Part shown: positions 7,694 through 38,155 of the stretch, one piece after another
How the letters are laid out: each line of letters opens with the position of its first letter
Numbering within the stretch: position 1 is the first letter of the stretch
Source of the DNA: Escherichia phage PECP14
Strand: one strand, 5' to 3'
Sequence record: OQ870555.1
Length of the DNA stretch: 64,000 nt
The notes under the pieces: model-generated
What the model was told of the DNA's origin: nothing
Seen by the model: the letters and a program-made list of their open reading frames with translations, nothing else
Database searches by the model: none
Made by a program: the position numbers and the translations under genes

Positions 7694-7927
7694 TTATGAT
7701 TCTTTGAGCAAAGAAGCAAGTTCAGCATAGACTTTATCTAACTCAAAGCCAATGCGAAGAGACACACGAGTCTTCCGTTGTTTAAGTAACCATATGGAGA
7801 CATTAGGGATGCCAGCGAGACGAGGTGGTACAACCCTACATAGTTTCTCCGCAGTATCGTAAACAGAAGTTTTACGTTCTTTTATGGGAAACTTCCTTGT
7901 TTCCCACTTTTTATTCTTCACTGTCAT
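7694..7927 (-). CDS. hypothetical protein
   Basis: ORF 7694-7978 trimmed to the internal Met to limit overlap with the upstream helicase gene; start uncertain. Confidence 0.35.
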   Translation of the reverse strand: MTVKNKKWETRKFPIKERKTSVYDTAEKLCRVVPPRLAGIPNVSIWLLKQRKTRVSLRIGFELDKVYAELASLLKES

Positions 7928-10700
7928 TTCTAGCTCCCAATTCAGCAAGAGCTTCCTCATGCATCTGACGTTCTTCATCTGTCATAAACTTAACTGGAAT
8001 CGGCATACATTCGATCTTACAGTAAGTTCTGTACCAGTCCACAATCTTTTCCGTATCCAGATCTTTACCGATACCCATCATGCCAAGATACATACGAGCA
8101 TATTTTGGGTTAGCGCTCTGACCTGTCTTAAGGAAGAAATCCTTCTTCTTATTCTTAAGAGCTTCGATAAACGGTTTGATTGTTACGTTTGAACACTTTT
8201 TAATATCTTCCCAGAACATCTCGTGCATCTTATGGAAAAATGCAGCTCGATCATTCGGTTTATCCTTGATATACTGTTCAACGTGTTCCACTGTTACATC
8301 TTTAATAGAATCCAGATGATAATAGCGAACCAGAAGTAACTTGGCTTCATAGGCATCTGCATGACGTGGTGCGCAATATTCAGGAGTTGAGTGCAGAATA
8401 GCTTTGATTCGCTCTTCTGTATACTCTTTGCCTGCACCTTCGATAGTCCCCCAGCTTTCACTGAAGATATCAATAGTTGCACCTTGATCGAGAAGATAAT
8501 AACGCAAAGTACTGGTATAGTTTCTAGATTCCAGCTCACGACGGCGTGCGTACAGTTGCTGAGCTAACTCAATCCAACCCTCGTCAATATTATATTGCTC
8601 GGAACCCGCAGAGAATCCACTCGTAGATTTATCAATAAAATAATAAATGTTCTGAGCACCACGGTCGCGCCTGATTGCTTGAAAACGCATGTTTGGCGCT
8701 TGGTTTGAGGTTCTAGTGATTACGAATACGTTATCAAAATAGTTAAAGTCAACACCACTCGTTACAGATGGACTACATAATAAACAATCAATCTGTTGAT
8801 CAATTAGCTCATTAGTTGTATAATCCAGAATACGTCGGATATCTACATCAGACGTAGAGTTTGAGTGAATTTCTTTAACTAACGCACCAGTATTACGACG
8901 TAATGCCATTCCCTTCTCATTCAGTTCATCCGGGCCACAGTCAGATACTAGGATTGATTTCTCCCCCATCTCTAAAGATGTTTGAAGTGCAACCCAAATA
9001 CTGGATTCATCAGGGAATTCATAAGCATGAGCTTTCGCCAGCATTTTACGGTGGTGATTATAAAATGCGACTGGTTTATCAAAATCAATCAAAGAACCAT
9101 AGGCTTCAATCGTTTCTGCACTGATATCACCATCGGATAAGATAACAGTTTTAGCAGTAATAAGGATATCACGAAGAACCTGAATACATTCACGACGGTT
9201 TTTAACAACCGGAGCGAATAACAGATCATTCATTACTGCGTCACATTCATCAATAAAGATCGTATCAATCTGACCCACAAAGCTCTTGAACTTATGGATA
9301 GAGTGAATAGTTGAAGACATACGATCAATGGCACCACGTTTGAAGTTCAGCATATCAACTGACTTATCATACTGACCAGCACCGAATTTCTTCGCGTTAG
9401 AAGATACAAGTGCCCTAGTATTTGTGATTGCAATAAAGTTTCCTGGAAGAACACCTGCATCTAGCCACTTAGTTACTGCTGTAGTTTTACCCGTACCAAG
9501 ACTTGCCTTAACAAATGTTAAATGTCCTTTTGGGGGTACAATGTTAATTTTCAGGTACGGAACTTCTGGTGGAGAATCTGTGTCTAGACGTTTTAATGGT
9601 ACACCTTTTAAGTTTGGTGGAATCTCACGTTTGGAGTTATTTACAAAGGCTTTGAGAGCCTGCTTACGACCGTTATTAAAGTAATCTTGAATATTACGAC
9701 TATTATCTTTAGTCGCAATATACTCAGATAAAGCTGGTTTAATCTCACGTTCTAACCACGTAAAGTCAACACCATCTTCTAACGCTCTGTGATAAAGTTT
9801 TGGGATAATACGCAGGTACACTCCATCCTCAGCTTCTTCTAGTTCGCTGATGGTTTCTTCCACTTTATCAGATGCAGCCTTCTTGCCTTTAATTTGATCA
9901 AGTAAGGAGTAGAACTCTTCTTTAAACTCACCTCTAGTTGTTTCAAAGTCAACTAGGTTATTAGGTAGATTCACCTTCGAACCCTTAACATATACAAGAC
10001 GTGGTTTATTCTCCGCTTTAAACGGATCGACTATACCATCATCAAATAAGGGATCTGCAAAATAGTGAAGCTGAACAGAAGAATAATAAGCTAAGTCAGC
10101 AATATCAAAGCCATACTTTTGCTTACTACTGTCATTGATAGATGTAAATAAGAACTTTAACTGTCCCTGCGTTACCTTGACATTAGATTCTAGCATTAAG
10201 TGCATTCGGATACCTGGTTTTAATCCAGCCGAAGACGATGCATGGGCAATAAACCCTGCATCAAGAGGAAACATATCCTCACTAATACTATTCAACATCT
10301 TAATAATATGACGTGCCATGCCAACAAGATTAAACTTGTCATAGCCACCAGTATCTACAATACCATCCACGTCCATAGCAATAATATGACTAGGATTGGA
10401 TACGTTAAAGTTTCCCCTGGTACGACGCACATTATCTTTTGGAGCTAAACATTTACCACGAATAGCTACAATATGCGGGTCTTTGGTAAGACGACGCATG
10501 ATAGGTAACATTTCAGCAAGGTTTTGCGGGTCAAGTTCTTCAAGTACATCAAATTTGAAGGGCATGGAAGCTGGTTTACCTTCTGGATGCTCTTTAGAGA
10601 ATCGCTTTGCAAAGGTGTAATCTTCCACTTTGATCTCTTTCCAGATGCCAGTGGCTTTATCTCTGGAAAATCCTGCGTGACCTTGTAGGATTGAGAACAC
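7911..10700 (-). CDS. SF2 helicase / replication-origin-binding-type protein
   Basis: Walker A VKASLGTGKTT, Walker B FIDECD; ORF is open to 10823 but GTG at 10698-10700 has an AGGAG 7 nt upstream. Confidence 0.55.
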   Translation of the reverse strand: MFSILQGHAGFSRDKATGIWKEIKVEDYTFAKRFSKEHPEGKPASMPFKFDVLEELDPQNLAEMLPIMRRLTKDPHIVAIRGKCLAPKDNVRRTRGNFNVSNPSHIIAMDVDGIVDTGGYDKFNLVGMARHIIKMLNSISEDMFPLDAGFIAHASSSAGLKPGIRMHLMLESNVKVTQGQLKFLFTSINDSSKQKYGFDIADLAYYSSVQLHYFADPLFDDGIVDPFKAENKPRLVYVKGSKVNLPNNLVDFETTRGEFKEEFYSLLDQIKGKKAASDKVEETISELEEAEDGVYLRIIPKLYHRALEDGVDFTWLEREIKPALSEYIATKDNSRNIQDYFNNGRKQALKAFVNNSKREIPPNLKGVPLKRLDTDSPPEVPYLKINIVPPKGHLTFVKASLGTGKTTAVTKWLDAGVLPGNFIAITNTRALVSSNAKKFGAGQYDKSVDMLNFKRGAIDRMSSTIHSIHKFKSFVGQIDTIFIDECDAVMNDLLFAPVVKNRRECIQVLRDILITAKTVILSDGDISAETIEAYGSLIDFDKPVAFYNHHRKMLAKAHAYEFPDESSIWVALQTSLEMGEKSILVSDCGPDELNEKGMALRRNTGALVKEIHSNSTSDVDIRRILDYTTNELIDQQIDCLLCSPSVTSGVDFNYFDNVFVITRTSNQAPNMRFQAIRRDRGAQNIYYFIDKSTSGFSAGSEQYNIDEGWIELAQQLYARRRELESRNYTSTLRYYLLDQGATIDIFSESWGTIEGAGKEYTEERIKAILHSTPEYCAPRHADAYEAKLLLVRYYHLDSIKDVTVEHVEQYIKDKPNDRAAFFHKMHEMFWEDIKKCSNVTIKPFIEALKNKKKDFFLKTGQSANPKYARMYLGMMGIGKDLDTEKIVDWYRTYCKIECMPIPVKFMTDEERQMHEEALAELGARNDSEE

Positions 10701-11196
10701 AACAATACTCCTATGTTGGTTATTCGGATATCTTTCTTTAGGACTATTCAAAAGAATAGAACAACTATTACTACCATTTACACAAACATTAATCATCATC
10801 AAGCAGTATGAATAAGTTATCATACCTCAGTGCTGCGCTCTCTTAACTCTTATCCAGATCAGAACCTAGGTCATTGGCCGCTAAGCCGATTCTGATTGCC
10901 CTCACTATCCTATTGGTAGGTGGCTACTGGACGTGTCACCATTCGCTGCTCTTTTCGTTCGCACCCCCATATAAAGCTCTGCCTATATAACGAGCTAAAT
11001 ATGCACGGTTTGGATTTACCTTTCCGAATTCAGGGTACGCAGATCACTTAATTGATAATTAACTAATGCAGTATAAACACTAGTAATAGTTAAAACAACC
11101 CTTAATGGGGCAGCCTAACTGTTCCGTATTGCGGATTGTAAACAAGAAAAATTAGCAAAATCAATTTTTACTAATGTCTCTCAATTCAATATAAAT

Positions 11197-11225
11197 ATTA
11201 TATCAAGATTTTGAGCATCCTGCAA
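11197..11225 (-). promoter_or_regulatory. leftward early promoter followed by long leader
   Basis: minus strand TTGCAG-17-TATAAT; ~500 nt ORF-free before the helicase ORF. Confidence 0.45.
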
Positions 11226-11316
11226 GTAAAATTTTTCCGAAGGTGCTATCAGTGTCTTTGAGCACAGAGAAAACCGAGTCAAAACGACTCGGTAATCAGG
11301 ATTGAGCTAATGAAAA

Positions 11317-14578: not shown

Positions 14579-16453
14579 TTATTTAGCGCGAATGTCTTGA
14601 TGTTTCACTCGACCCATAACCTCATGTTGTTTACCTGGGTTAAACGGACGAGCACCTGGATTTCCAAGATATCCACAAACTCGACGAGTTACCTCAAGAG
14701 TCTCAGGATCATGATTGCCACAAATTGGGCATTTGAAACCATCCTCAGAAGCTATAGTTTCACCCAAGAACCCACATTCCCCACAAGAGTCTACTGGAGT
14801 ATTAATACCGAAGTAATGAACTTTACTTGCAGCATAGTTAATAACCCATTCCAGTGCATCAGGGAATCGTTTCATATCCGGTAATTCCACATAGGAAATG
14901 CACCCACCAGAAGCAATAGGAGTAAAGTTAGACTCATAATCAAACTTCACATTTGGAGCAACCTTACGTTCTACATCAAGGTGATGGGAATTAGTGTAAT
15001 ATCCTTTAGCCAGAATATCTTCATGCTCTGGGAAATACTCACGGTCTAGGCGACAGAAGCGATCACATAGAGATTCAGATGGTGTAGCATACAGACTATA
15101 CCCTAATTGAGTCTCTTCCTTCTTCTGATCAGCACGATCACGCATGTATTGTAGCACACGTTGAACGAACTTGATACAAGACTCAGACATTGTATCTACA
15201 TCTTTACCAAACATGAGCTGCAACATTTCGTGGCAACCAATATATCCTAGAGATACAGAAGCACGCTTGTAGAAATGATCAAATACATATTCATCTGGCC
15301 CCAGACGTAATCCAAAGGCTCCTGACATATAGAGGATGGGCGCAGCTTTAGCTTGAATGTATTTTAAGCGATCAACCCTCCACTCCAATGCTTTTAACGC
15401 GGTATCCACACGCAGCTCAAGCAGATCGAAGAATAGATCAATATTTCCTTCCGCTTCGATAGCGATTCGAGGAAGGTTTACGGAAACAACGCCTAAGTTG
15501 TTACGACCAGAAGTTTCACCATCTTCCGCAGCAGCCAGGAACGAACGACAGCCCATAGAGACTTTGTAGTCCCCCGTAACTTCTACAACCTTATCATAAC
15601 TGATGTAGTCAGGATACATACGTTCAGCAGTACATTTCATAGCTAACTTCTTGATATCATAGTTAACATCACCAGGTTTCATGTTTACGCCCTCACGCAA
15701 AACAAATACCAGTTTAGGGAAGATAGCTGTACGTTTATTGATACCCAAACCATCCATACGTACTTCTAGTATTGCTTTCTGTACAAGACGTGCTTCCCAA
15801 GAAGTTCCTAGACCAAAACCAAAGGTAATAAACGGACTTTGACCATTAGAGTTGAACATCGTATTGATTTCATACTCCAGGCCCTGACAGGCATCGTAAA
15901 CTTCTTTCTCAGTCATTTCCGTAGCCATTACAGATGCTTTGGCTTCATCCTTAGTCCAACGCTTTGCAAACGCATGATTCTTATCATAAGACTTACGAAC
16001 ATAAGGAGCCAATACTTCATCTAATCGGTCTACAGAAGTACCCCCATATTGATGTGAACTAACCTGAGTGATAATCTGAGCTGTGATAGCAGCCGCAGTA
16101 GTAATAGAGTTTGGTGTACTGATTTCAGCATTACCAACCTTCATACCATTCTTCAACATATCTTCCAAAGCAACCAGGCAACAGTTAGTCATACCTAATG
16201 CAGCGTAATCAGCATCATGGAAGTGAATATCACCAATCATGTGAGCATTTCGAATCTGGATTGGCATTTCTTCCAGAATCAGATATTTACTCAATTCCCC
16301 TGCAAGCATATCCCTTTGTGTAGGGAAACGTTCTGAGGGCTTATTGGCATTATTAAACAGCAGCTCTTCATCTGCTGAACCTTCGATAATTTCTTTGCAG
16401 TTTCGAATCAAGGACTGCATTCCTTTATACTTTAGTTCTTCATTGCGATTCAT
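14579..16453 (-). CDS. nrdD: anaerobic ribonucleoside-triphosphate reductase (class III)
   Basis: C-terminal Cys cluster (CGECG...CPICG) and glycyl-radical motif RVCGYLG. Confidence 0.85.
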   Translation of the reverse strand: MNRNEELKYKGMQSLIRNCKEIIEGSADEELLFNNANKPSERFPTQRDMLAGELSKYLILEEMPIQIRNAHMIGDIHFHDADYAALGMTNCCLVALEDMLKNGMKVGNAEISTPNSITTAAAITAQIITQVSSHQYGGTSVDRLDEVLAPYVRKSYDKNHAFAKRWTKDEAKASVMATEMTEKEVYDACQGLEYEINTMFNSNGQSPFITFGFGLGTSWEARLVQKAILEVRMDGLGINKRTAIFPKLVFVLREGVNMKPGDVNYDIKKLAMKCTAERMYPDYISYDKVVEVTGDYKVSMGCRSFLAAAEDGETSGRNNLGVVSVNLPRIAIEAEGNIDLFFDLLELRVDTALKALEWRVDRLKYIQAKAAPILYMSGAFGLRLGPDEYVFDHFYKRASVSLGYIGCHEMLQLMFGKDVDTMSESCIKFVQRVLQYMRDRADQKKEETQLGYSLYATPSESLCDRFCRLDREYFPEHEDILAKGYYTNSHHLDVERKVAPNVKFDYESNFTPIASGGCISYVELPDMKRFPDALEWVINYAASKVHYFGINTPVDSCGECGFLGETIASEDGFKCPICGNHDPETLEVTRRVCGYLGNPGARPFNPGKQHEVMGRVKHQDIRAK

Positions 16454-16483
16454 TATACCCTCCTTCTCTAACTAAGACTACTA

Positions 16484-16512
16484 TTATAACTCATTCGAAG
16501 GCGGATGTCAAC
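16484..16512 (-). promoter_or_regulatory. leftward consensus promoter for nrdD
   Basis: minus strand reads TTGACA-17-TATAAT, then GAAGGAGGG SD and nrdD ATG. Confidence 0.55.
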
Positions 16513-16562
16513 AATATTTTACTATAAAGTTCTGTAACATGATCTGAGTCAAAAAATTTTAT

Positions 16563-16591
16563 TTGCCAACCTCTACTAAAAATAGTATAAT
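16563..16591 (+). promoter_or_regulatory. rightward promoter in divergent control region
   Basis: TTGCCA-17-TATAAT on plus strand upstream of phoH. Confidence 0.45.
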
Positions 16592-16703
16592 CACGCACCC
16601 GTGTACGCGATATAAAATGATTATCTAGTACCATACATCTCCCAGTAAAAGCAAGTAAATTTTTTATTTAAATGCAATATCATAGGCTTATTTAAAATTG
16701 TAG

Positions 16704-16738
16704 TTGCCTTTTACTGTATATAATGGTATAATATATTT
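16704..16738 (+). promoter_or_regulatory. rightward promoter(s) upstream of phoH
   Basis: TTGCCT followed by two overlapping TATAAT hexamers. Confidence 0.45.
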
Positions 16739-16805
16739 GTAAGTTGATAAACAAGATCTTTTTGTTGATCCTCTGTTAGCGAAGTACACTATAGGAGTGT
16801 TATTT

Positions 16806-17558
16806 ATGGGAAAACCGCGTCAGAAAAGAGAGAACCGTAATGGTTCAAGAAAGCGTAGCAACAAGTACGAGAGTAACGTAATTCAGGCTGACTTTTCGAA
16901 TGATTACGCCAATCCAGTTGCTAAATCCCTAGTTGGTAAAAACCGTGAGCAAAAATCATATATCAATATGATCAAGAATAACACAGTGACTGTGGGTATT
17001 GGTGAACCAGGTACTGGTAAAACCTTCATCCCGTCAGTTCTTGCAGCTCAGGAACTCGTAGACATTCACTCAGATATTGAGCAAGTGATCCTCGTGCGTC
17101 CGAACGAACCTCTAGGTAAATCTCTTGGTATGCTCCCAGGTGATCTGGCAGAAAAGCTAGAGCCTTGGTTGGAACCAATAGCCGATGGCATGAAATGGGC
17201 AATCGGTGATCACGCCTACAAAGGATATGTCGAACGCCAGAAAATTAAATTCCTGGCTATCGAACATGCCCGTGGCCGAACTTTCAACAACTCCTATGTA
17301 ATTGTCGATGAAGCTCAGAATATCTCCGTTGAAGCAATGATCTGTCTCCTGACTCGTGTCGGACAGGATTGCCGTTTAATCATCTGTGGAGATATCGCTC
17401 AGAAAGACATTAAGGGTGACTCCGGTCTAGCACTTCTTATGGAAGTCTATGAGAAGTACGAGAACGCCCCTTTCTCAATGATCGAACTAATTGATAACGT
17501 TCGTTCTGTTGAGTCTAAAGCATTCTACGATATCTTTAAGGATATGGGGAAGGTATAA
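16806..17558 (+). CDS. phoH: PhoH-like ATPase
   Basis: Walker A GEPGTGKTF, Walker B VIVDEAQN; TAGGAG SD before ATG 16806. Confidence 0.75.
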   Translation: MGKPRQKRENRNGSRKRSNKYESNVIQADFSNDYANPVAKSLVGKNREQKSYINMIKNNTVTVGIGEPGTGKTFIPSVLAAQELVDIHSDIEQVILVRPNEPLGKSLGMLPGDLAEKLEPWLEPIADGMKWAIGDHAYKGYVERQKIKFLAIEHARGRTFNNSYVIVDEAQNISVEAMICLLTRVGQDCRLIICGDIAQKDIKGDSGLALLMEVYEKYENAPFSMIELIDNVRSVESKAFYDIFKDMGKV

Positions 17559-30381: not shown

Positions 30382-30456
30382 CGGGGTGTAGTCTAAGGGA
30401 TAGGCAGGAGTCTTCTAAATTCCTTTATGCAGGTTCGAATCCTGTCACCTCGGCCA
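30382..30456 (+). tRNA. tRNA-Arg(TCT)
   Basis: hand-folded cloverleaf; AC loop CTTCTAA; T-arm GCAGG-TTCGAAT-CCTGT; CCA encoded. Confidence 0.6.
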
Positions 30457-30694
30457 ATTTTATTAACTGCTAGGAAAATAAAGTGAAAACACGATATATA
30501 GTAAAAGTAGTAGGTGAACATTCACAAGTAAATACCACCGATGTTACAGCGCTAGCATTTGAAGTAGTCTCCGGTATAGTCATATTTCATAACGGAGATA
30601 TCAAAGCTCCTGAATTTGCTGTGGATGCTAGCCTGTTTATTTCTGCAACTAAAGTAACTGTAGTAGCTAACTCTTCTAAATAATAAGGAAATAT

Positions 30695-31639
30695 ATGTTT
30701 ACTAAAAACACTAAAGAACTGACTTCCGATCAAAAAGTAATTCGTACTATTAAACGTTGGGGTGTTGGTGCTGTAGTTGGTCTTGGCGCTCTTATTCTGG
30801 CTCTCAATTCCTATACAGTTGTTCAGGACGGTACGGTTAAAACTCAGACTTTCCTGGGTAAAGTTAGTCCTAATCCTGTATTGCCGGGGTTCCATATTGT
30901 CAACCCATTCGCCTCTTTTGATACTTTTAGTACGAAAGATATTTCTATGAAACTGGATAAACTTCAGGTTCCTAGCCAGGATAAGTTTAAGTCTACAGTT
31001 GACATTACCGTTATGTTGCAGTTTGATGGTGCTAAAGCTCCTATGAACCGTGTTAACGCAGGTACTCAGGATCAAGCTCTGAACAAGTACGTTGAAGAGA
31101 AGATGCTGTCTACGATTCGTGAGTTTGGTAAGTCTGTACCAAAAGCACAAGATCTGTTCGACGCTAAGATTCAGGCTCAACTGCAAACCGCTATTCAGCA
31201 AGAAGTAGAAGAGTATGCGCGTCCTTATGGTTACACCGTTAAGCAAGTATTCCTTCAGGATATTACTCTGCCACCGGTAATCATGGAACAGGTACAGAAC
31301 ACCAAAGTTCGTGAAGAACAAGTTAACGCTGCAAAAGCTGAACTGGCTCGTGTTGAACAAGAAGCACAGCAGAAAGTTAAGCAAGCTGAGGCAGATCGTT
31401 CCGCTCGTGAAAACATGGCAGTAGCTAACGAACGTGACGCAGATGCTAAACTGTACGCAGCTAAGAAAGAAGCTGAAGCTAACGCCGCTCTGCAACGTAC
31501 CATTACTCCTGAAATGATTCGTTGGAAGCAGCTGGAAGTTGAAATGCTTCGTGCTGAAAAATACCAAGGGGGTGTACCACAGACTGTTGTCGGTACTGGC
31601 TACGATGGTCAAATGATCATGGATATGCGTAACAAGTAA
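30695..31639 (+). CDS. SPFH/band-7 (prohibitin/HflK-like) membrane protein
   Basis: N-terminal TM helix, SPFH core, long Ala/Glu/Gln coiled-coil tail; two terminators downstream. Confidence 0.65.
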   Translation: MFTKNTKELTSDQKVIRTIKRWGVGAVVGLGALILALNSYTVVQDGTVKTQTFLGKVSPNPVLPGFHIVNPFASFDTFSTKDISMKLDKLQVPSQDKFKSTVDITVMLQFDGAKAPMNRVNAGTQDQALNKYVEEKMLSTIREFGKSVPKAQDLFDAKIQAQLQTAIQQEVEEYARPYGYTVKQVFLQDITLPPVIMEQVQNTKVREEQVNAAKAELARVEQEAQQKVKQAEADRSARENMAVANERDADAKLYAAKKEAEANAALQRTITPEMIRWKQLEVEMLRAEKYQGGVPQTVVGTGYDGQMIMDMRNK

Positions 31640-31662
31640 TAGTTACACGTAATCTTCGAACC

Positions 31663-31698
31663 AAGCCCGCGTTTCCTTCGAGAGCGCGGGCTTTTCTG
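31663..31698 (+). terminator. intrinsic terminator after SPFH gene
   Basis: AGCCCGCG...CGCGGGCT stem + TTTTCTG. Confidence 0.6.
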
Positions 31699-31714
31699 TA
31701 TTTAAGGCAAAAGA

Positions 31715-31754
31715 AAAAGCCCCTTACCTTTCGGCAGGGGCTTTTGTTTTTTGG
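31715..31754 (+). terminator. second, possibly bidirectional terminator
   Basis: AAAAAGCCCCT...AGGGGCTTTTGTTTTTT at the convergence point of plus and minus genes. Confidence 0.6.
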
Positions 31755-31959
31755 TTTAGAACCATACTCTCTTGTTACAACAACCACTCATACGGGAGAC
31801 CAATCTTGACTGAAAATCTACTCTAGGGGGCAGGATAAGAGTAGGCTTAAAGGCAAACGGATTGAACACCGGTATTTGTGTAAACATTGCTGGAGAGCAA
31901 CAACGTGCTACAGGTATTGGGCAGCACGAAACAGATTTTCTGCAACACATAATTCCTCC

Positions 31960-32376
31960 TTAGGAGTTATTACCGCCATTTTGAGCTTTTGCAACTTGGC
32001 TTTGGCAGAAGCTATTAAACTTACCCATAAGTGCTACAAGCTGTTTCCCATCCTCTGTCTTTGCGAAGTCTTCGAAAAGGGCTAGTACTGCCTGTCCTTC
32101 CGCAGAAACCTGCGGTTGTTGGGTTTGTTGCTGAACTTGCTGCTGAGGCACCTGTTGCTGCATTTGTTGAGGCATTTGCGACTGCCCGCTCATTTGCTGC
32201 ATCATTTGCATAGGACTCACACTTCCAGGGTTTTGCTGGAGTTGCTGCTGCATCTGTTGCGCTTCTGCTAAACGCTGTTGCAACTGTTGTAGGTAAGGGT
32301 TATCCAGACCCGGAATGGGCTGCTGAGAGCCCATTGGTTGATTAAATCCGTTGTTCACAAAACCATATTTACTCAT
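31960..32376 (-). CDS. glutamine-rich low-complexity protein
   Basis: over 30% Gln with poly-Q(M/P) tracts; convergent with neighbouring plus-strand genes. Confidence 0.45.
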   Translation of the reverse strand: MSKYGFVNNGFNQPMGSQQPIPGLDNPYLQQLQQRLAEAQQMQQQLQQNPGSVSPMQMMQQMSGQSQMPQQMQQQVPQQQVQQQTQQPQVSAEGQAVLALFEDFAKTEDGKQLVALMGKFNSFCQSQVAKAQNGGNNS

Positions 32377-32398
32377 AATGGGCTCCTCCCCTTAAAGA

Positions 32399-33400
32399 TT
32401 AGGCTGGTACTTTAGCCTGTAGAGCTGCTAGAGTCTGAGTAATTGCACCCAGGCTTACAGCGATTTGATTGATTACCTGACCGTTTGCACCGCTACCTGC
32501 AGCGATTGCTTCACGCAGACGGCATTCATTCAGTTCGTCTTGGATACGCGCAGTAGTTACACCAGCAATCGCAGTCTGAAGTTCGCAGCAGCACTCAGCA
32601 AGCTGACGTTCGATAGCGTTCTGGTTAGCACACATCTGAGCCTGAACAGCGGCAAACTGGTTGTTAGTCTGAAGAGACTGCTGGAAAGCAATCTGGGCAG
32701 AGTCAAACTTGTCTTGTGCACGAGCGATCTGGTTAGCAGCGAAAGCTTGATCCATCTGGCGAGAAAGATCGAACTGACCCTGAATAACGTTACGAGTTTC
32801 CTGACAGATCTGGTTGGACAGGTTAGCACCAGTACCATACACAGTAGTCAGAATCTGTTGAGTGCTAGAAGCTTGAGCAGCACCTACACCATTAACAGCG
32901 CTCAGAACAGCACCAGTACCTTGATTCGCTTCGGTACGAGCAGTGTTGATTGCAGCTAGAATACTTGCAGTATCCTGGTTAGATAGGATAGCATCCACAG
33001 CAGTTCCCTCAGCGGCAACACCAGCACCACGTCCGAAACCACCGAAACCACCGAATCCGCCTGTTAATAGAGCACCAATCAGGATAGCTCCGAATAGACC
33101 CATACCTTCACCGCCGAAAGCACCATTTGCTACTGCTGGGTAACCACCCATCAGACCTGGGAAGCCGCTAGTGAATACGTTTACTGGTTCTTGCATTTTA
33201 TGTTTCCTATGTTTATGACAGCCCTCATGGTCGTCATCTTCATCATCTTCATCGTCATCATCGTGATCACGATGTTTCTTTTCGTAGGCCTTGACCTTCT
33301 CCCACTTATGTTTGTCTGATTCCTCATGACGTCTCAGTTCTGCTGCGACTTCACTGACGGTCTCAGGTTTCTTAGTTGCTTCTTCTGTCATTTTTGACAC
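32399..33400 (-). CDS. hypothetical protein: acidic/His-rich N-term, Gly-zipper segment, Ala/Gln-rich domain
   Basis: DDDDEDDEDDDHEGCHKHRKHK then GGFGGFGGFGRG; TTGACA-type promoter and AGGAGGTG SD upstream. Confidence 0.5.
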   Translation of the reverse strand: MSKMTEEATKKPETVSEVAAELRRHEESDKHKWEKVKAYEKKHRDHDDDDEDDEDDDHEGCHKHRKHKMQEPVNVFTSGFPGLMGGYPAVANGAFGGEGMGLFGAILIGALLTGGFGGFGGFGRGAGVAAEGTAVDAILSNQDTASILAAINTARTEANQGTGAVLSAVNGVGAAQASSTQQILTTVYGTGANLSNQICQETRNVIQGQFDLSRQMDQAFAANQIARAQDKFDSAQIAFQQSLQTNNQFAAVQAQMCANQNAIERQLAECCCELQTAIAGVTTARIQDELNECRLREAIAAGSGANGQVINQIAVSLGAITQTLAALQAKVPA

Positions 33401-33459
33401 CTCCTAGTATATAGAAAATGTGTGTCTCTTTGATCACTCATCTATAACATATACTTTAC

Positions 33460-33500
33460 ACTACCCCAGCGAAAATGTCAAGGGGTCTTTAAAAATTGCC
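33460..33500 (-). promoter_or_regulatory. leftward sigma70-like promoter for the convergent module
   Basis: minus strand CCTTGACATTTT...TAAAGT, then TAGGAGGTG SD before 33400 ATG; coordinates approximate. Confidence 0.4.
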
Positions 33501-33597
33501 CCCGGATTTTTAGTGGGATAACAATTTCTGGACCTCACCACTCACCTGCTACCCTTAAGTGCCCTGCGATTTTCCACTAAAAAGTTTAAAAATTCGA

Positions 33598-33626
33598 TTG
33601 CTTGAATGCTAAATTCTCTGTATAAT
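33598..33626 (+). promoter_or_regulatory. early promoter cassette
   Basis: TTGCTT-17-TATAAT + TTATAAATTTGAGAGAGGAA. Confidence 0.55.
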
Positions 33627-33656
33627 ATATTTATAAATTTGAGAGAGGAATCAAAT

Positions 33657-34712
33657 ATGATTAAGACTGGTCTAGTAATTGGTAAGTTCGCACCATTAAC
33701 GCGTGGTCATATTAACCTAATAAACACAGCAGCAACTATGTGTGAACGAGTTATTGTTGTAGTTAGTCATGATAATCGTTGGCTGGATAAGCAGAACACA
33801 CGTGATCAGGAAGTATTACAGTTAAAGAATCGACTTCGTTGGTTAGAACAAACTTACGCGGATATTGAGCACGTTTCGGTAGAGTACATTATTGAAGATG
33901 ATATTCCTGAATATCCGAATGGTTGGCCGGAATATGCTAGAATCCTTAATGAAAATTATGGACATTTGCCTGAGATCACCATTTTCTCTAGCGAACTAGA
34001 CTATGATGCAGAATATAAGAAATATCTGCCGAAGTTTGGTCATTATATTGTAGATTCTGATCGGACTCGTGTTCCAATCTCAGCTACAATGATTCGTAAT
34101 GATCTTATGAAGTATTGGGAGTTTCTTCCTAGCGTAGTTCGTAAAGATTACGTGCGTAAGGTTGTAATCATTGGGACTGAAAGCTCAGGCAAAACAACTT
34201 TAACAAAGTACCTTGCGAAATTATATAATACTTCGTGGGTAGAAGAATATGGTCGTACTTACTGCGAAGTTGATCTAGTTGGTAATGAAGAACTCCTGAC
34301 TAGCGAGGACTATAATAAAATTGCATTCAGGCACAAAGAGCTAGAGTTTGAGGCAGAACGTACTGCAAATAAGATCATGTTTGTAGACACAAATGCTTTC
34401 ATTACAGAGTTTTATCACAGACTTTACGAGCATCGTAAAAATCCGGTTGTAACAGCTATTGCTAAAGAAGAGCATTATGATTTAGTTATAGTTTTAGCAC
34501 CTACTGTTAAGTGGGTAGATGATGGTTTACGTATTAACTCCGATCGTTCAATTACTTCTGAACTGTTCGAGCAGATGAAGAAAGAATTTCCTAATCAGTT
34601 TCCAGAAGGGCGTACTGTATATATTGACTCCCCGGACTATAAGGTTCGTATGGACGAAGCAGTAAACGCAGTAGACTGGCTGATTCATCACTTTAACGTT
34701 GGAGAGTTTTAA
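33657..34712 (+). CDS. NadR-like NMN adenylyltransferase / ribosylnicotinamide kinase
   Basis: GKFAPLTRGH (HxGH nucleotidyltransferase) and GTESSGKTTL (Walker A kinase). Confidence 0.65.
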   Translation: MIKTGLVIGKFAPLTRGHINLINTAATMCERVIVVVSHDNRWLDKQNTRDQEVLQLKNRLRWLEQTYADIEHVSVEYIIEDDIPEYPNGWPEYARILNENYGHLPEITIFSSELDYDAEYKKYLPKFGHYIVDSDRTRVPISATMIRNDLMKYWEFLPSVVRKDYVRKVVIIGTESSGKTTLTKYLAKLYNTSWVEEYGRTYCEVDLVGNEELLTSEDYNKIAFRHKELEFEAERTANKIMFVDTNAFITEFYHRLYEHRKNPVVTAIAKEEHYDLVIVLAPTVKWVDDGLRINSDRSITSELFEQMKKEFPNQFPEGRTVYIDSPDYKVRMDEAVNAVDWLIHHFNVGEF

Positions 34713-34713
34713 T

Positions 34714-35391
34714 ATGACTAACTATCTTGTAAATGACTTTAAAAACTGGAAACCTTTGGAATATCTGTGGCTGTTTATAGCAGTCGCCTTTATTAGTTTA
34801 GCTAACTATAATGGTACAGCTCTAGATTGGGCTACTGCAATAACCAACGTGGTTTGTGTTATTCTGGTTGCAAAAGGACGTGTTTCCAACTATATTTGGG
34901 GCTTAGTTGGTGTTCTTACCTATGGTATTACAGCTTTAAACGCAGATCTTTATGGTAACGCTGCACTAAACCTGCTATACTACGTTCCTATGCAGTTTTA
35001 TGGAATGTACTTATGGCATAAAAATAAGCCAAGTAATCTGCCAGATGTTCCAACTAAGGTTCTGACTAAAGCCCAAGCTCTGCTGACTCTAGGGATTCTA
35101 GCAGTAGCCACGTTAGGGTATGGTAGTTTCTTAGCTACTACGGCTGATCCATTCCCAATGTTGGATGCATTTACTGCGGTAGGTAGTGTGATCGCTATGT
35201 GGCTTATGGTTAAGCAGTATGCCGAGCAGTGGCTGATCTGGATTGCTATTAACATTGGTACTGTATATATTTGGCTTGTAACTGCCCAGTCTACGGGTGC
35301 TTCTTATGCAATCCTAGCAATGTGGCTGGTGTTCTTAGGTAACTCTATTATGGGAGCCTATAAAGGCTACTTTGTAAGAGTTAACAAATAA
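34714..35391 (+). CDS. pnuC: PnuC-like nicotinamide riboside transporter
   Basis: polytopic membrane protein with PnuC-like W/Y-rich helices; directly follows NadR-like gene. Confidence 0.6.
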   Translation: MTNYLVNDFKNWKPLEYLWLFIAVAFISLANYNGTALDWATAITNVVCVILVAKGRVSNYIWGLVGVLTYGITALNADLYGNAALNLLYYVPMQFYGMYLWHKNKPSNLPDVPTKVLTKAQALLTLGILAVATLGYGSFLATTADPFPMLDAFTAVGSVIAMWLMVKQYAEQWLIWIAINIGTVYIWLVTAQSTGASYAILAMWLVFLGNSIMGAYKGYFVRVNK

Positions 35392-35396
35392 AGTAG

Positions 35397-35425
35397 TTAT
35401 AGCCCTCTAAGCGAGGGCTATTATA
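35397..35425 (+). terminator. hairpin terminator after pnuC
   Basis: ATAGCCCTC-TAAGC-GAGGGCTAT. Confidence 0.5.
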
Positions 35426-35438
35426 CAGAAATTTTCAC

Positions 35439-35467
35439 TTGCTTTATATAGAAAATTTCTGTATAAT
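35439..35467 (+). promoter_or_regulatory. early promoter cassette
   Basis: TTGCTT-17-TATAAT; near-identical leader to the 33598 copy. Confidence 0.55.
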
Positions 35468-35497
35468 ATATTTATAAATTTGAGAGAGGAATCAAAC

Positions 35498-35794
35498 ATG
35501 AAACACATTGTACTTGCATTGACTCTAGTATCTACTTCTGTATTTGCTGCTCCACAACAGGAACTTTGTCAAGTTCAAGTTTGTAATAAGCTAGAACGAT
35601 TTACTCTAGACATTTGGTCGCACATTAAAGATAATATGGGTGAACAGTGTTTTGATATTGTTCTGCCAAAAGAACAAGCTGTTCCTGGGGCTGTTCTCAG
35701 CTCAGAATCACGTTGGTGGCAGGGTTCTTCTATCAACCCAACTAAGAAGTCAGTGACACGTATCAAACAAGTATATCAGTGCAATGTTCAGTAA
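35498..35794 (+). CDS. small secreted Cys-containing protein
   Basis: signal peptide MKHIVLALTLVSTSVFAAP. Confidence 0.45.
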   Translation: MKHIVLALTLVSTSVFAAPQQELCQVQVCNKLERFTLDIWSHIKDNMGEQCFDIVLPKEQAVPGAVLSSESRWWQGSSINPTKKSVTRIKQVYQCNVQ

Positions 35795-35802
35795 AATTTC
35801 AC

Positions 35803-35831
35803 TTGCTTAATGCCGAAATTTTCTGTATAAT
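35803..35831 (+). promoter_or_regulatory. early promoter cassette preceding tRNA-Ser
   Basis: TTGCTT-17-TATAAT. Confidence 0.55.
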
Positions 35832-35845
35832 ATATTCATAAATTC

Positions 35846-35939
35846 GGAAGATTAACCCTAAAGGTAAGGGAGCTGTTTGCTAAACAGCCAGTAGCTGTGG
35901 AGACACGGTGTGCCAGTTCGAATCTGGCATCTTCCTCCA
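35846..35939 (+). tRNA. tRNA-Ser(GCT)
   Basis: acceptor GGAAGAT/ATCTTCC; AC loop TTGCTAA; long variable arm; follows promoter. Confidence 0.7.
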
Positions 35940-35944
35940 AATTT

Positions 35945-36022
35945 GGTTCTCAAGCTCATTTGGTATGAGCCGTCGCCTCATAAGCGAAAGGTAGGTAGGT
36001 TCGAATCCTCCGGGAGCCACCA
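35945..36022 (+). tRNA. tRNA-Met/Ile2(CAT)
   Basis: D-stem GCTC/GAGC; AC loop CTCATAA; T-loop TTCGAAT; CCA encoded. Confidence 0.55.
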
Positions 36023-36039
36023 ATTAACTAGGAGACTAT

Positions 36040-36225
36040 ATGTCTAGATTCTATGAAATGAAGAAAGCATTAGAAGAATGTCGGTGTAAGGATTGTCATG
36101 GTGGTGGTAGGCAGGATGATGCAGAACCTGGGGATATTTTCTGTAGAGAATGGGAATGTCCTACATGTAAAGGTACTGGTATCAACCCTGAATATGCAAT
36201 TTGTCTAGACATTGAGCGAGGCTAA
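36040..36225 (+). CDS. small Cys-rich (zinc-ribbon-like) protein
   Basis: CRCKDC...CREWECPTC. Confidence 0.4.
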   Translation: MSRFYEMKKALEECRCKDCHGGGRQDDAEPGDIFCREWECPTCKGTGINPEYAICLDIERG

Positions 36226-36565
36226 GATGGATATTTTTACTACTCCGGCAATAAACCTTTTAGGTGTTGGCTTGTTCCAAGCTACGGTGTATCGTACTGA
36301 TGATTCTACTGATGTGGTAACGTTCATCGTACCTGAGTTCTTCCTAGAAAAGTTCTTTGAAGAGTTTGAGCAGTTCCGTGAAGAACACAATGCTCATTCC
36401 GATATGGAAGATCTAGCAGCTATGTTCCCTGTGGTTTACGGCTATATCTTTGAAGGTAATGGCCTAGATCTTAATAAATCTGAACTCGTTGAACTTAATT
36501 GGGGCATCAATTTTGAAGTTGGCTCTCCATTCCCTCGATATTTCCAGGGTTTAGAGATTCGCTAA
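36212..36565 (+). CDS. hypothetical protein
   Basis: ORF. Confidence 0.45.
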   Translation: MSEAKMDIFTTPAINLLGVGLFQATVYRTDDSTDVVTFIVPEFFLEKFFEEFEQFREEHNAHSDMEDLAAMFPVVYGYIFEGNGLDLNKSELVELNWGINFEVGSPFPRYFQGLEIR

Positions 36566-36573
36566 GATTACAT

Positions 36574-36650
36574 GGGGGTGTAATCGAATTGGCATAGGTA
36601 CTGGACTTAAAATTCAGGTTTTGTGGGTTCGAATCCCACCACCCCTACCA
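36574..36650 (+). tRNA. tRNA, anticodon TAA (isotype uncertain)
   Basis: acceptor GGGGGTG/CACCCCT; T-arm GTGGG-TTCGAAT-CCCAC; AC loop CTTAAAA with short variable loop. Confidence 0.5.
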
Positions 36651-36665
36651 AATTAAGGAAATAAA

Positions 36666-36788
36666 ATGAAAGCTATTAAGAAAGCACTACGTAAATTTAT
36701 GTACTGTCGTTTTCATAGCATCAAGACTTCAACTAATGGTACGACTTATGATCGCTATGATCCTAAGTTTGGCTTACATTCTAAATAA
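36666..36788 (+). CDS. small hypothetical protein
   Basis: 40-codon ORF with AAGGAAA SD after a tRNA. Confidence 0.3.
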   Translation: MKAIKKALRKFMYCRFHSIKTSTNGTTYDRYDPKFGLHSK

Positions 36789-36801
36789 CTGGAGATAATA
36801 A

Positions 36802-37008
36802 ATGGCTAATCCTGAAATTACTGCACAGCGCTTTATGCTGAAAGGTATTATTGCTGAAGCAGGCATGACAGAAGAAGTTGCAGATTTTCAAAAGCAGTTC
36901 CTAAATATTCTCACTCAAGCCAAAGAGCTAGGAGAGAAAGAACATGGCGCGGCTATTATGGCAATCACATTGGTTGGGCTTGATCTGGCAGAAGAATCAG
37001 GAGTTTAA
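36802..37008 (+). CDS. hypothetical protein
   Basis: ORF. Confidence 0.4.
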   Translation: MANPEITAQRFMLKGIIAEAGMTEEVADFQKQFLNILTQAKELGEKEHGAAIMAITLVGLDLAEESGV

Positions 37009-37038
37009 CTCCTCCAAGCAGAAATTTTAAAAATGTAC

Positions 37039-37068
37039 TTGCTTTTTACTTAAGATTTCTGCTATAAT
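37039..37068 (+). promoter_or_regulatory. early promoter cassette
   Basis: TTGCTT-18-TATAAT. Confidence 0.5.
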
Positions 37069-37098
37069 AGTTATATAAATTGATGAAGGAGTTAACGA

Positions 37099-37374
37099 AT
37101 GTCAAAACGTGTTACTGCAACTGGTGTTGAAAGTGCTGTTTGTAAATCCTGGGGTGGCTGGGAAGGTGAGATTGAATGGCTTTATTTCTACGATGTAGAA
37201 CTTCTGCCGGAAGTCAAAGCTAAATGTGTGGAAGCTGGTATGGCTCCTGATGCAAAGGCTGATATCGAAATCACCATGACTAAGCTAGAAGGTCGTGTAA
37301 TTACGCTCAATGATGATTATGAAGAAGTGTTCGAGCTTCCATTCAAACTGAGTGTCACCCCTAGCTTCGAGTAA
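37099..37374 (+). CDS. hypothetical protein
   Basis: promoter cassette + AAGGAG SD. Confidence 0.45.
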   Translation: MSKRVTATGVESAVCKSWGGWEGEIEWLYFYDVELLPEVKAKCVEAGMAPDAKADIEITMTKLEGRVITLNDDYEEVFELPFKLSVTPSFE

Positions 37375-37410
37375 CTGATATAGCACTGAGCAAGTTCTTT
37401 AAAATTTGAC

Positions 37411-37439
37411 TTGCTCAGTCCTTCAAAACTTGATATAAT
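37411..37439 (+). promoter_or_regulatory. early promoter preceding tRNA cluster
   Basis: TTGACTTGCTC / TATAAT. Confidence 0.5.
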
Positions 37440-37503
37440 AGTTATCTAATTTGGAAAACATATTTAAAAGTGTTTAAACTAGTATTTGAATATTTCTAAA
37501 TAT

Positions 37504-37594
37504 GTTGGATTAGTATCGTAGAGGTAGCGAAGCAGACTGTAAATCTGCCGACTCGGAAGGGTCTCGGGTGGTTCGACTCCATCATCCAACACCA
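37504..37594 (+). tRNA. tRNA-Tyr(GTA)
   Basis: AC arm GCAGA-CTGTAAA-TCTGC; long variable arm. Confidence 0.6.
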
Positions 37595-37601
37595 AATTTA
37601 A

Positions 37602-37678
37602 GTCCTGTTAGACAAACTGGTAAAGTCACTACCCTTTCAAGGTAGGATTTGCGGGTTCGATCCCCGCACAGGACGCCA
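37602..37678 (+). tRNA. tRNA-Glu(TTC)
   Basis: acceptor GTCCTGT/ACAGGAC; AC loop CTTTCAA; T-arm GCGGG-TTCGATC-CCCGC. Confidence 0.7.
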
Positions 37679-37687
37679 AATTCTGCA

Positions 37688-37763
37688 TTCCTAGAGTGTT
37701 ACTGGACAGCATGTCGGTCTCCAAAACCGTACGGTCTAGGTTCGAGTCCTAGTAGGTTTGCCA
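37688..37763 (+). tRNA. tRNA-like, anticodon CCA (Trp?), non-canonical acceptor
   Basis: AC arm TCGGT-CTCCAAA-ACCGT and T-arm CTAGG-TTCGAGT-CCTAG are good but acceptor stem does not pair. Confidence 0.35.
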
Positions 37764-37769
37764 ATATTT

Positions 37770-37844
37770 GCACCTTTAGCTGAGATGGATTAGCGCTTGC
37801 CTGAAGAGCTTGAGAGGTTGGATCGTTACCAACGGGGTGCACCA
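37770..37844 (+). tRNA. tRNA-Phe(GAA)
   Basis: acceptor GCACCTT/GGGGTGC; AC loop CTGAAGA; T-arm GTTGG-ATCGTTA-CCAAC (atypical loop). Confidence 0.5.
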
Positions 37845-37846
37845 AT

Positions 37847-38134: not shown

Positions 38135-38155
38135 CCGCTTAAAGTTCTGTATAAT
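38127..38155 (+). promoter_or_regulatory. early promoter cassette
   Basis: TTGCTT-17-TATAAT. Confidence 0.5.

What the first reader, a model, noticed from the sequence alone, without database searches (positions are those of the whole stretch)
16454..16805. Divergent control region at the strand switch
This 350-bp AT-rich stretch separates leftward nrdD from rightward phoH. It contains a perfect leftward TTGACA-17-TATAAT promoter and at least two rightward promoters. It is the only strand-switch point in the window and sits among replication genes, so it is a candidate replication origin or regulatory hub.
Basis: inference. Interest (0 to 1): 0.4.

Follow-up and report, generated by a model that had tools for sequence, protein, structure and literature searches.

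The report
Divergent early promoters of T5-like phage
This AT-rich gap is the back-to-back promoter region that starts the two opposite-facing early gene blocks of a T5-like phage; it is already annotated in phage T5, and nothing in the sequence shows it is also a replication origin.

Summary
The window is a T5-like phage, 100% identical to vB_SabS_Sds2 (Epseptimavirus). Positions 16454-16805 are exactly the gap between nrdD (leftward) and phoH (rightward). The described promoters are real:
- a 12/12 leftward promoter;
- an 11/12 rightward promoter (P1);
- a 10/12 rightward promoter with an extended -10 (P2).

GC is 29.8% against 40.3% for the window. All three promoters are conserved in relatives. 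The layout recurs in Klebsiella, Providencia and Proteus T5-like phages. The T5 GenBank record AY543070 already annotates the same three promoters.

The origin idea is not supported.
- There are no DnaA boxes, iterons or Rfam matches.
- The GC-skew flip follows gene orientation everywhere, including a small opposite-strand island.
- P1 and its GC-rich block are naturally missing or replaced by homing-endonuclease genes in several relatives.
- Published recombitron data for T5 indicate mainly unidirectional replication from one end.

It is also not the only strand switch in the window.

Some points remain open. The 16614-16805 block is under purifying selection: the phoH leader is 97% identical against 81% at third codon positions. 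It is also the least stable 200 bp of the window, and T5's origin has never been mapped to sequence.

Verdict: an ordinary, known divergent early-promoter hub. An origin role is a low-probability extra.

The parts
14579..16453 (-). nrdD, anaerobic ribonucleotide reductase. First gene of the leftward early arm in this phage.
   Evidence: ORF; Pfam NRDD E=1.8e-172 plus Gly_radical; annotated as nrdD in relatives.
16454..16805 (.). The whole nrdD-phoH intergenic region (352 bp, 29.8% GC).
   Evidence: Homologous to T5 53591-53960.
16458..16466 (-). Shine-Dalgarno sequence of nrdD (GAAGGAGGG on the minus strand), inside a leader of about 23 nt.
   Evidence: Read from the sequence. A ribosome-binding site is annotated at the same place in Stitch.
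16483..16511 (-). PnrdD: leftward consensus promoter TTGACA-17-TATAAT (12/12).
   Evidence: Hexamers and spacing are conserved in all 11 Markadamsvirinae aligned, even where another gene follows. 12/12 in phiR201, Klebsiella K7_rec19 and Proteus phage 2; 11/12 in Providencia PSTCR5. Annotated as the nrdD promoter in AY543070.
16549..16591 (+). P1: rightward promoter. A/T tract AAAAAATTTTAT, then TTGCCA-17-TATAAT (11/12).
   Evidence: Annotated as a promoter in T5. Present in Stitch, T5, BF23, Kenya-K20/K38, TrudiGerster and phiR201. Absent or replaced in SP01, Shivani, AZ21 and SE19.
16590..16611 (.). GC-rich block directly after the P1 -10 (discriminator and first transcribed bases). It is an imperfect palindrome, ATCACGCAC-CCGT-GTACGCGAT.
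   Evidence: It is one of only two GC islands in an AT-rich context in the window. A GC-rich block sits in the same relative place in Klebsiella, Providencia and Proteus phages. Pairing is not conserved in T5, Kenya-K20 or phiR201.
16614..16703 (.). Conserved AT-rich block upstream of P2, including the P2 UP-like tract TTATTTAAAATTGTAG. GC is 18-28%.
   Evidence: Retained in all relatives, including those with a replaced left half. Mean pairwise identity is 0.94 for 16656-16705. It is part of the least stable 200 bp of the window.
16704..16737 (+). P2: the T5-type early promoter of phoH. TTGCCT-17-TGgTATAAT followed by ATATT.
   Evidence: Universal in relatives, with equivalents in other genera. 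ATATT is the reported hallmark of T5 early promoters (PMC7472727). The TTGCTw/TATAATA consensus comes from PMC3326045. Annotated in T5 and BF23.
16739..16805 (+). phoH leader of about 67 nt. It holds an inverted repeat (16746-16754 / 16762-16770), a CCTCTG motif, and a small hairpin (16786-16800) that covers the Shine-Dalgarno GGAG (16794-16797).
   Evidence: Mean pairwise identity is 0.968, against 0.813 at phoH third codon positions. Folds are; z-scores are only -0.9 to -1.4.
16806..17558 (+). phoH, first gene of the rightward early arm (followed by nrdA, nrdB, frd, td, RNase H and the tRNAs).

Best explanation
The region is the divergent early-promoter junction of a T5-like phage. Host sigma-70 RNA polymerase binds three strong promoters packed into 250 bp.
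- PnrdD fires leftward into nrdD and the replication-gene arm.
- P1 and P2 fire rightward into phoH, the ribonucleotide reductase and thymidylate genes, and the tRNA cluster.
- P2 is a standard T5 early promoter: A/T-rich upstream tract, TTGCxT -35, extended -10, and an ATATT discriminator.
- P1 is an accessory upstream promoter with an unusual GC-rich discriminator.

The AT-richness and low duplex stability follow from stacked promoters and their upstream tracts. The phoH leader and the block upstream of P2 are under extra selection, most likely for expression control (RNA polymerase contacts, leader structure or stability, or a regulator site).

Shown here: the motifs, their orientation, their conservation, and their prior annotation. 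Inferred: that they are active in vivo, and the reason for the extra conservation.
For: - Promoter matches of 12/12, 11/12 and 10/12 with TG, in the correct orientation and at the correct distance from the genes.
- Such high-quality matches are far above shuffles for the window.
- P2 belongs to a class of about 15 co-oriented promoters in the window with the same architecture. That architecture matches published T5 and AKFV33 promoter features (PMC7472727; PMC3326045).
- PnrdD and P2 are conserved in all 11 aligned Markadamsvirinae. The three-part layout recurs in Klebsiella, Providencia and Proteus T5-like phages.
- AY543070 annotates the same three promoters, and OR083247 annotates two.
- Homing-endonuclease genes inserted here in relatives sit directly behind these promoters.
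- No other element class was detected.
Against: - No transcription start data for these three promoters were found in the searchable literature, so activity is inferred.
- Promoter function alone does not obviously explain the near-invariance of the 67-nt leader.
- It also does not explain why a GC-rich block follows P1 in several genera.
- The 16609-16808 segment is the least stable 200 bp of the window, so an added DNA-unwinding role is not excluded.
Confidence: 0.85

Rival explanations
1. The junction is also the primary, early replication origin of T5-like phages and is activated by transcription. An RNA from P1 (or from the divergent pair) runs through the GC-rich block and forms a stable hybrid. 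The adjacent conserved AT-rich block (16614-16750) melts, helped by negative supercoiling between diverging polymerases. The phage primase/helicase then loads there, as at the T7 primary origin or T4 oriF/oriG.
For: - The T5 homologue lies at 53.6-54.0 kb of 121.75 kb, or 44%. Electron microscopy put T5 origins near the centre (10.1101/866236).
- 16609-16808 is the least stable 200 bp of the window.
- The non-coding block is under purifying selection.
- A promoter followed by an AT-rich stretch is the form of the T7 and T4 origins (my own knowledge).
- T5 encodes a UvsW-like helicase, D10 (PMC5180179).
- The architecture is conserved across genera.
- A cumulative GC-skew minimum about 2 kb away was proposed as the origin in phage phiLLS (PMC5519627). 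The distance is my estimate and assumes collinear genomes.
Against: - There are no initiator-site repeats, DnaA boxes or iterons.
- The skew flip is explained by coding strand. The embedded minus-strand island has skew -0.05 between flanks of +0.08 and +0.11, and the minimum is a plateau with its lowest point at 19296.
- P1 and the GC block are missing in SP01, Shivani, AZ21 and SE19. About one fifth of matching records do not cover 80% of the region.
- Homing-endonuclease insertions are tolerated here.
- At the 60-100 bp scale, several other promoter regions are equally or more unstable.
- Recombitron editing of T5 shows one strand preference across the genome (PMC10055335).
Confidence: 0.1
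2. The hairpin at 16590-16611 is an intrinsic terminator, or the body of a tiny leftward RNA. It would stop or insulate leftward transcription entering from the phoH promoter region before it reaches PnrdD.
For: - The scan calls it a terminator on the minus strand: 9 pairs followed by a T-run.
- It folds at -11.0 kcal/mol on the minus strand, with z = -2.6, but hardly at all on the plus strand.
- A weak leftward promoter, TTTACT-18-GATAAT, lies just upstream at 16649..16620.
Against: - The pairing is not maintained in T5, Kenya-K20, TrudiGerster or phiR201 (-4 to -7.5 kcal/mol with different pairs).
- The T-run is simply the spacer of P1.
- No leftward gene lies upstream that would need terminating.
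- The element is absent in several relatives.
- There is no Rfam match.
Confidence: 0.05
3. The near-invariant phoH leader is a post-transcriptional control element. A hairpin hides the ribosome-binding site until a phage or host factor, or a change of conditions, opens it. This is an addition to the promoter explanation, not a replacement.
For: - The leader is 96.8% identical on average, against 81.3% at third codon positions of phoH.
- The minimum-energy folds of leaders from four genera all give two hairpins. The second covers the Shine-Dalgarno sequence, although the sequences differ.
Against: - Fold energies are not better than shuffles (z -0.9 to -1.4).
- There are too few independent sequences for a covariation test.
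- phiR201 changes the first hairpin without clear compensation.
- Conservation could instead reflect early-transcribed-region effects on promoter escape, or a DNA-level operator.
Confidence: 0.25

Closest known systems
The nrdD-phoH intergenic promoters annotated in phage T5 (AY543070, 53638-53958) and BF23 (OR083247)
   Same: It is the homologous locus, about 85-96% identical. The same three promoters lie in the same order and orientation.
   Different: There are only point differences (P2 -35 is TTGCCT here, TTGCTT elsewhere) and an 18-bp length difference upstream of P1 relative to T5.
T5-type early sigma-70 promoters: A/T-rich tract near -43, TTGCTw, a 17-18 bp spacer, TATAATA, and an ATATT discriminator (PMC3326045, PMC7472727)
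   Same: P2 fits every listed feature. P1 has the upstream tract and both hexamers.
   Different: P1 has a GC-rich discriminator (CACGCACC) instead of ATATT. PnrdD is a plain TTGACA/TATAAT consensus promoter without the TTGCTw or ATATT signature.
Transcription-activated phage origins: the T7 primary origin (tandem promoters plus an AT-rich stretch) and T4 oriF/oriG (a promoter plus an unwinding element). Described from my own knowledge.
   Same: Rightward promoter(s) are followed by a very AT-rich, easily melted, conserved stretch.
   Different: There is no evidence of RNA-DNA transitions or replication bubbles here. The upstream promoter is dispensable in natural relatives. T5 strand-bias data argue against a dominant internal bidirectional origin.
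oriC-, lambda- or plasmid-type origins (clusters of initiator sites plus an unwinding element)
   Same: Only the AT-rich, low-stability stretch.
   Different: There are no DnaA boxes (one site with a single mismatch), no iterons and no tandem repeats.

Membership tests
Sigma-70 promoter (T5 early type) | -35 and -10 hexamers close to TTGACA/TATAAT with 17 +/- 1 bp spacing | tested here: met
   12/12, 11/12 and 10/12, all with a 17-bp spacer. Matches of this quality are above shuffles window-wide.
Sigma-70 promoter (T5 early type) | A/T-rich upstream tract, TTGCTw -35, TATAATA -10, and an ATATT discriminator | tested here: met
   Met in full by P2 (TTATTTAAAATTGTAG, TTGCCT, TGgTATAATA, ATATT). 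P1 has the tract and hexamers but a GC-rich discriminator. PnrdD lacks the signature. The consensus comes from PMC3326045 and PMC7472727.
Sigma-70 promoter (T5 early type) | Placed upstream of, and co-oriented with, a gene; conserved in relatives | tested here: met
Sigma-70 promoter (T5 early type) | Transcription start demonstrated in vitro or in vivo | not testable with these tools
   No start-site data for this locus were found. The GenBank promoter features are predictions or transfers from T5.
DnaA-dependent (oriC-like) origin | Cluster of DnaA boxes (TTWTNCACA) | tested here: not met
   No exact box. One site with a single mismatch lies in 16400-16850, against 149 such sites in the whole window.
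Iteron-type origin (lambda, plasmids) | Several direct repeats of an initiator-binding site | tested here: not met
   The only repeat is the shared upstream-tract/-35 string of P1 and P2. There are no tandem arrays near the site.
Any origin | DNA-unwinding element of low duplex stability | tested here: inconclusive
   16609-16808 ranks first of all 200-bp stretches. It ranks 4th at 100 bp and below the listed top 12 at 60 bp. Other promoter regions are similar.
Any origin | Strand-composition switch caused by replication | tested here: not met
   The skew follows gene strand, including in the island at 31756-33391 and at 63422-63882. The minimum is a plateau with its lowest point at 19296.
Transcription-activated phage origin (T7 primary, T4 oriF/oriG) | Promoter followed by an AT-rich unwinding region | tested here: met
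   P1 is followed by 16614-16703 at 18-28% GC. This is a resemblance of form only.
Transcription-activated phage origin (T7 primary, T4 oriF/oriG) | Replication initiates there (bubbles, RNA-DNA junctions, copy-number peak, plasmid amplification) | not testable with these tools
   Indirect published data point the other way (PMC10055335). Electron microscopy says only 'near the centre'.
Herpesvirus-type origin bound by a UL9-like protein | Inverted UL9 boxes (CGTTCGCACTT) flanking an AT-rich spacer | tested here: not met
   No match with 2 or fewer mismatches in 16454-16805. Window-wide there are 10 matches against 11.9 expected. The specificity of the phage protein is unknown.
Intrinsic terminator | GC-rich hairpin plus U-run, conserved pairing, and an upstream transcription unit | tested here: not met
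   The form is met on the minus strand in this phage. The pairing is not conserved, and there is no upstream leftward gene.

The most novel reading that the evidence does not exclude
The nrdD-phoH junction is the long-unmapped primary origin of T5-like phages. Divergent early transcription, and possibly an RNA from P1 anchored by the GC-rich block, would open the conserved AT-rich block 16614-16750 for the first round of replication. Recombination-driven or end-driven replication would then take over. That later mode would explain the single strand bias seen in bulk editing data.
Probability: 0.08. Interest if true: 0.6.

Novelty: already known. Interest (0 to 1): 0.15.

Why it matters
As a promoter junction it matters little, because it is a textbook feature of T5-family genomes and is already annotated.

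It would matter only if the low-probability origin reading were true. T5 replicates prodigiously, yet its origin has never been placed on the sequence. A defined origin would allow origin-plasmid assays and clean studies of the T5 replisome.

The practical by-products are modest:
- a well-defined strong bidirectional promoter cassette;
- a documented hotspot where homing-endonuclease genes settle behind strong promoters;
- a highly constrained phoH leader that could be tested for translational control.

Tried and rejected
- **Host-factor sites.** Scans for DnaA, IHF, strict Fis and NrdR sites found nothing beyond one DnaA site with a single mismatch.
- **Known RNA families.** Rfam at E <= 10 gave only meaningless sub-threshold hits.
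- **Repeats.** No iterons or tandem repeats were found.
- **The 47-aa ORF at 16491-16634 (minus strand).** It has no Pfam hit. It is intact only in this phage and Stitch, so it is spurious.
- **Minus-strand hairpin as terminator or small RNA.** Rejected because the pairing is not conserved and there is nothing for it to terminate.
- **Z-DNA idea for the alternating purine-pyrimidine GC block.** Such runs are not enriched in the window (7 against about 15 in shuffles). They are long in Providencia and Proteus phages (19-28 nt).
- **GC skew as origin evidence.** Rejected because it is confounded by gene strand.
- **HSV UL9 box search.** At chance level.
- **Exact-string literature search for the T5 promoter sequences.** No hits.
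- **Supplement of PMC7472727.** It holds images only.
- **Bourguignon et al. 1976.** Not held in the library.
- **IMG/VR scan for intermediate relatives.** Mostly unrelated PhoH phages.
- **Leader RNA structure.** The folds are not significant by energy.

Full report
**Identity of the window.** The 1.3 kb around the finding is 100% identical to phage vB_SabS_Sds2 and 98% identical to Salmonella phage Stitch (Demerecviridae, Epseptimavirus). It matches 443 T5-like records. The window runs in the opposite orientation to the standard T5 map. The left part, on the minus strand, carries nrdD, a Sir2-like gene, the origin-binding-protein-like helicase, D2, D3, D5, ligase, primase/helicase and polymerase. 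The right part, on the plus strand, carries phoH, nrdA, nrdB, frd, td, RNase H and 28 tRNA genes. Pfam confirms NrdD (E=1.8e-172), PhoH (E=3.2e-61) and NrdA.

**The observation.**
- The interval 16454-16805 is exactly the gap between the nrdD start codon (16453, minus strand) and the phoH ATG (16806).
- GC is 29.8% against 40.3% for the window, falling to 18-28% between 16625 and 16775.
- The consensus scan finds a leftward TTGACA-17-TATAAT at 16511..16483 (12/12). It also finds a rightward TTGCCA-17-TATAAT at 16563..16591 (11/12), and a rightward TTGCCT-17-TATAAT with an upstream TG at 16704..16732 (10/12).
- The local count of weak matches is at chance (7 against 6.8). Window-wide, however, there are two 12/12 sites against 0.07 in shuffles, and seven sites at 11/12 or better against 1.9. 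Two of those seven lie in this gap.
- The description is therefore correct, except for 'the only strand-switch point'. Three minus-strand ORFs at 31756-33391 are embedded in the rightward arm, and two of them are annotated on that strand in Stitch. They give a convergent switch near 31.7 kb and a second divergent junction at 33392-33605, which has its own leftward TTGACA-17-TAAAGT. A further convergent switch lies at 62934-63421.

**Comparison with relatives.** I aligned the gap from 11 Markadamsvirinae. The results were:
1. PnrdD keeps both hexamers and its spacing in every phage, even where a different gene follows it.
2. P2, its upstream tract, the ATATT that follows it and the phoH leader are present in all.
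3. P1 and the GC-rich block after it are present in Stitch, T5, BF23, Kenya-K20, Kenya-K38, TrudiGerster and phiR201. They are missing in SP01, Shivani and AZ21, and replaced in SE19.

In one search, 355 of 439 records cover at least 80% of the region. The listed partial matches mostly retain the part equivalent to 16615-16810; one truncated record ends before it.

The extra genes next to the junction in those phages are homing endonucleases. They are T5orf172 with a treble-clef zinc finger in SP01, Kenya-K20 and AZ21, HNH in phiR201, and a 163-aa rightward HNH-type gene in SE19.

Outside the subfamily the layout repeats: a leftward consensus promoter, then a rightward upstream promoter with a GC-rich block, then a rightward proximal promoter. 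It occurs in Klebsiella phage K7_rec19, Providencia phages PSTCR5 and PR1-like, and Proteus phage 2. A Vibrio T5-like phage keeps the strand switch at phoH but lacks nrdD.

**What is already known.** GenBank AY543070 (T5) annotates three promoters at 53638-53712, 53776-53850 and 53884-53958. These are the homologues of P2, P1 and PnrdD. The BF23 record annotates two. The BF23 paper says its promoters were predicted and compared with those reported for T5 by Wang et al. 2005 (PMC10644984). P2 fits the published description of T5-family promoters: TTGCTw, TATAATA, a 17-18 bp spacer and A/T-rich tracts (PMC3326045). It also has the ATATT discriminator found in all known T5 early promoters (PMC7472727). 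About 15 promoters of this class lie in the window, all co-oriented with their genes. P1 differs by a GC-rich discriminator (CACGCACC). PnrdD is a plain consensus promoter.

**Testing the origin idea.**
- There are no DnaA boxes, IHF, Fis or NrdR sites, no iterons, no tandem repeats near the site, and no Rfam family.
- Plus-strand GC skew is -0.117 over the left arm and +0.044 to +0.108 over the right arm. It also turns negative in the embedded minus-strand island (-0.050, between flanks of +0.080 and +0.114) and over the terminal minus-strand genes (-0.246).
- First codon positions carry a skew of about +0.25 to +0.34 on the coding strand in most of the genes tested, so the flip is a coding-strand effect. 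The cumulative minimum is a plateau from 16.5 to 19.5 kb, lowest at 19296.
- A published origin prediction for the T5-like phage phiLLS rests on the same kind of skew minimum. By my estimate, assuming collinear genomes, it lands about 2 kb to the left of the junction (PMC5519627).
- By nearest-neighbour stability, 16609-16808 is the least stable 200 bp in the window (z = 3.1). At 100 bp it ranks fourth, and at 60 bp it falls below the listed top 12. The competing sites are other AT-rich promoter regions.
- Literature: T5 origins were seen by electron microscopy 'near the centre' (10.1101/866236), and the T5 homologue of this gap is at 44% of the genome. [quoted passage not shown] T5's replication apparatus is otherwise little studied (PMC5180179; PMC3632103).
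- Taken together, the origin reading has circumstantial support only. The natural loss of P1 and the tolerance of gene insertions argue against an essential element in the left half.

**Features that promoters alone do not fully explain.**
- *Selection on the right-hand block.* Mean pairwise identity is 0.968 for the leader 16739-16805 and 0.940 for 16656-16705. For phoH codon positions 1, 2 and 3 it is 0.970, 0.981 and 0.813. The right-hand block therefore evolves about as slowly as protein-coding first and second positions.
- *Leader structure.* The leader contains a 9-bp inverted repeat (8 of 9 pairs) at 16746-16770. It also contains a small hairpin, ACACT-ATAGG-AGTGT, over the ribosome-binding site. 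Leaders of Klebsiella, Providencia and Proteus phages also fold into two hairpins, the second covering the Shine-Dalgarno sequence. None folds better than shuffled controls (z -0.9 to -1.4), so I treat this only as a lead.
- *The GC-rich block after P1.* It is one of only two GC islands in AT-rich surroundings in the window, and it recurs in the same place in other genera. In this phage it forms a minus-strand hairpin (-11.0 kcal/mol, z = -2.6) that the scan calls a terminator. The pairing is not kept in T5, Kenya-K20, TrudiGerster or phiR201, and nothing upstream needs terminating.
- *Most economical reading of that block.* It is a GC-rich discriminator and initial transcribed region that gives P1 different kinetic or regulatory properties from the ATATT class. 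This is inference.

**Verdict.** The regulatory-hub interpretation is correct and already known for T5. The origin interpretation is unsupported by sequence, weakened by comparative and published functional data, and not formally excluded. Interest is low.

Noticed in passing
L004:1532-2395, L005:1532-2395, L007:1733-2401, L010:1696-2367, L058:350-850, L006:1708-2199 (equivalent to window about 16454-16615): The nrdD-phoH junction is a hotspot for homing-endonuclease genes in relatives. T5orf172/treble-clef genes lie between PnrdD and nrdD in SP01, Shivani, Kenya-K20 and AZ21, and an HNH gene in phiR201. A rightward HNH-type gene replaces P1 in SE19. Each sits directly behind one of the strong promoters.
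   Followed up: yes
window 16739-16805: The phoH leader is almost invariant (96.8% mean identity, against 81.3% at third codon positions). In four genera it folds into two hairpins, the second covering the Shine-Dalgarno sequence. Fold energies are not significant (z -0.9 to -1.4).
   Followed up: partly
window 16590-16611; L011:2824-2845; L012:2757-2775; L059:993-1020: A GC-rich block follows the -10 of the upstream rightward promoter in several genera. It is largely alternating purine-pyrimidine, up to 28 nt in Proteus phage 2. It sits inside an otherwise AT-rich gap, and its function is unexplained.
   Followed up: partly
window 10824-11316: A roughly 490-bp unannotated non-coding stretch lies upstream of the 970-aa origin-binding-protein-like helicase gene. 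It holds a leftward terminator (11293-11273). A T5-type leftward promoter around 11237-11163 is conserved even in Proteus, Klebsiella and Providencia phages, which implies a leader of about 300 nt. The 9-mer CGTTCGCAC (core of the HSV UL9 box, from memory) sits at 10956, but that part is variable among relatives.
   Followed up: partly
window 7911-10823 (-): The 970-aa protein that relatives annotate as 'replication origin binding protein' gives no Pfam match at E <= 1e-5. Stitch annotates a shorter version (2790 nt), so the true start may be near 10700.
   Followed up: no
window 31756-33605: A minus-strand island of three ORFs lies inside the rightward arm. The 333-aa and 138-aa ORFs have no Pfam hits. 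Short 9-nt tandem repeats lie inside the 333-aa gene (33033-33055, 33225-33269). A second divergent junction at 33392-33605 faces a NadR-like gene.
   Followed up: partly
window 62577-63450: A T5orf172-type small gene (62577-62933) is followed by the only other 12/12 promoter of the window (62951-62980, plus strand, with TG). That promoter points towards minus-strand ORFs at 63422-63882. A 35-nt unit repeated 1.9 times lies at 63385-63450.
   Followed up: no
L001:34196-34270, 39663-39839, 40391-40467, compared with window tRNAs 30382-45022: The Stitch record lists its tRNA genes on the strand opposite to the neighbouring genes. ARAGORN places all 28 tRNAs of the near-identical window on the same (plus) strand as their neighbours. 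This looks like a strand error in that record.
   Followed up: no
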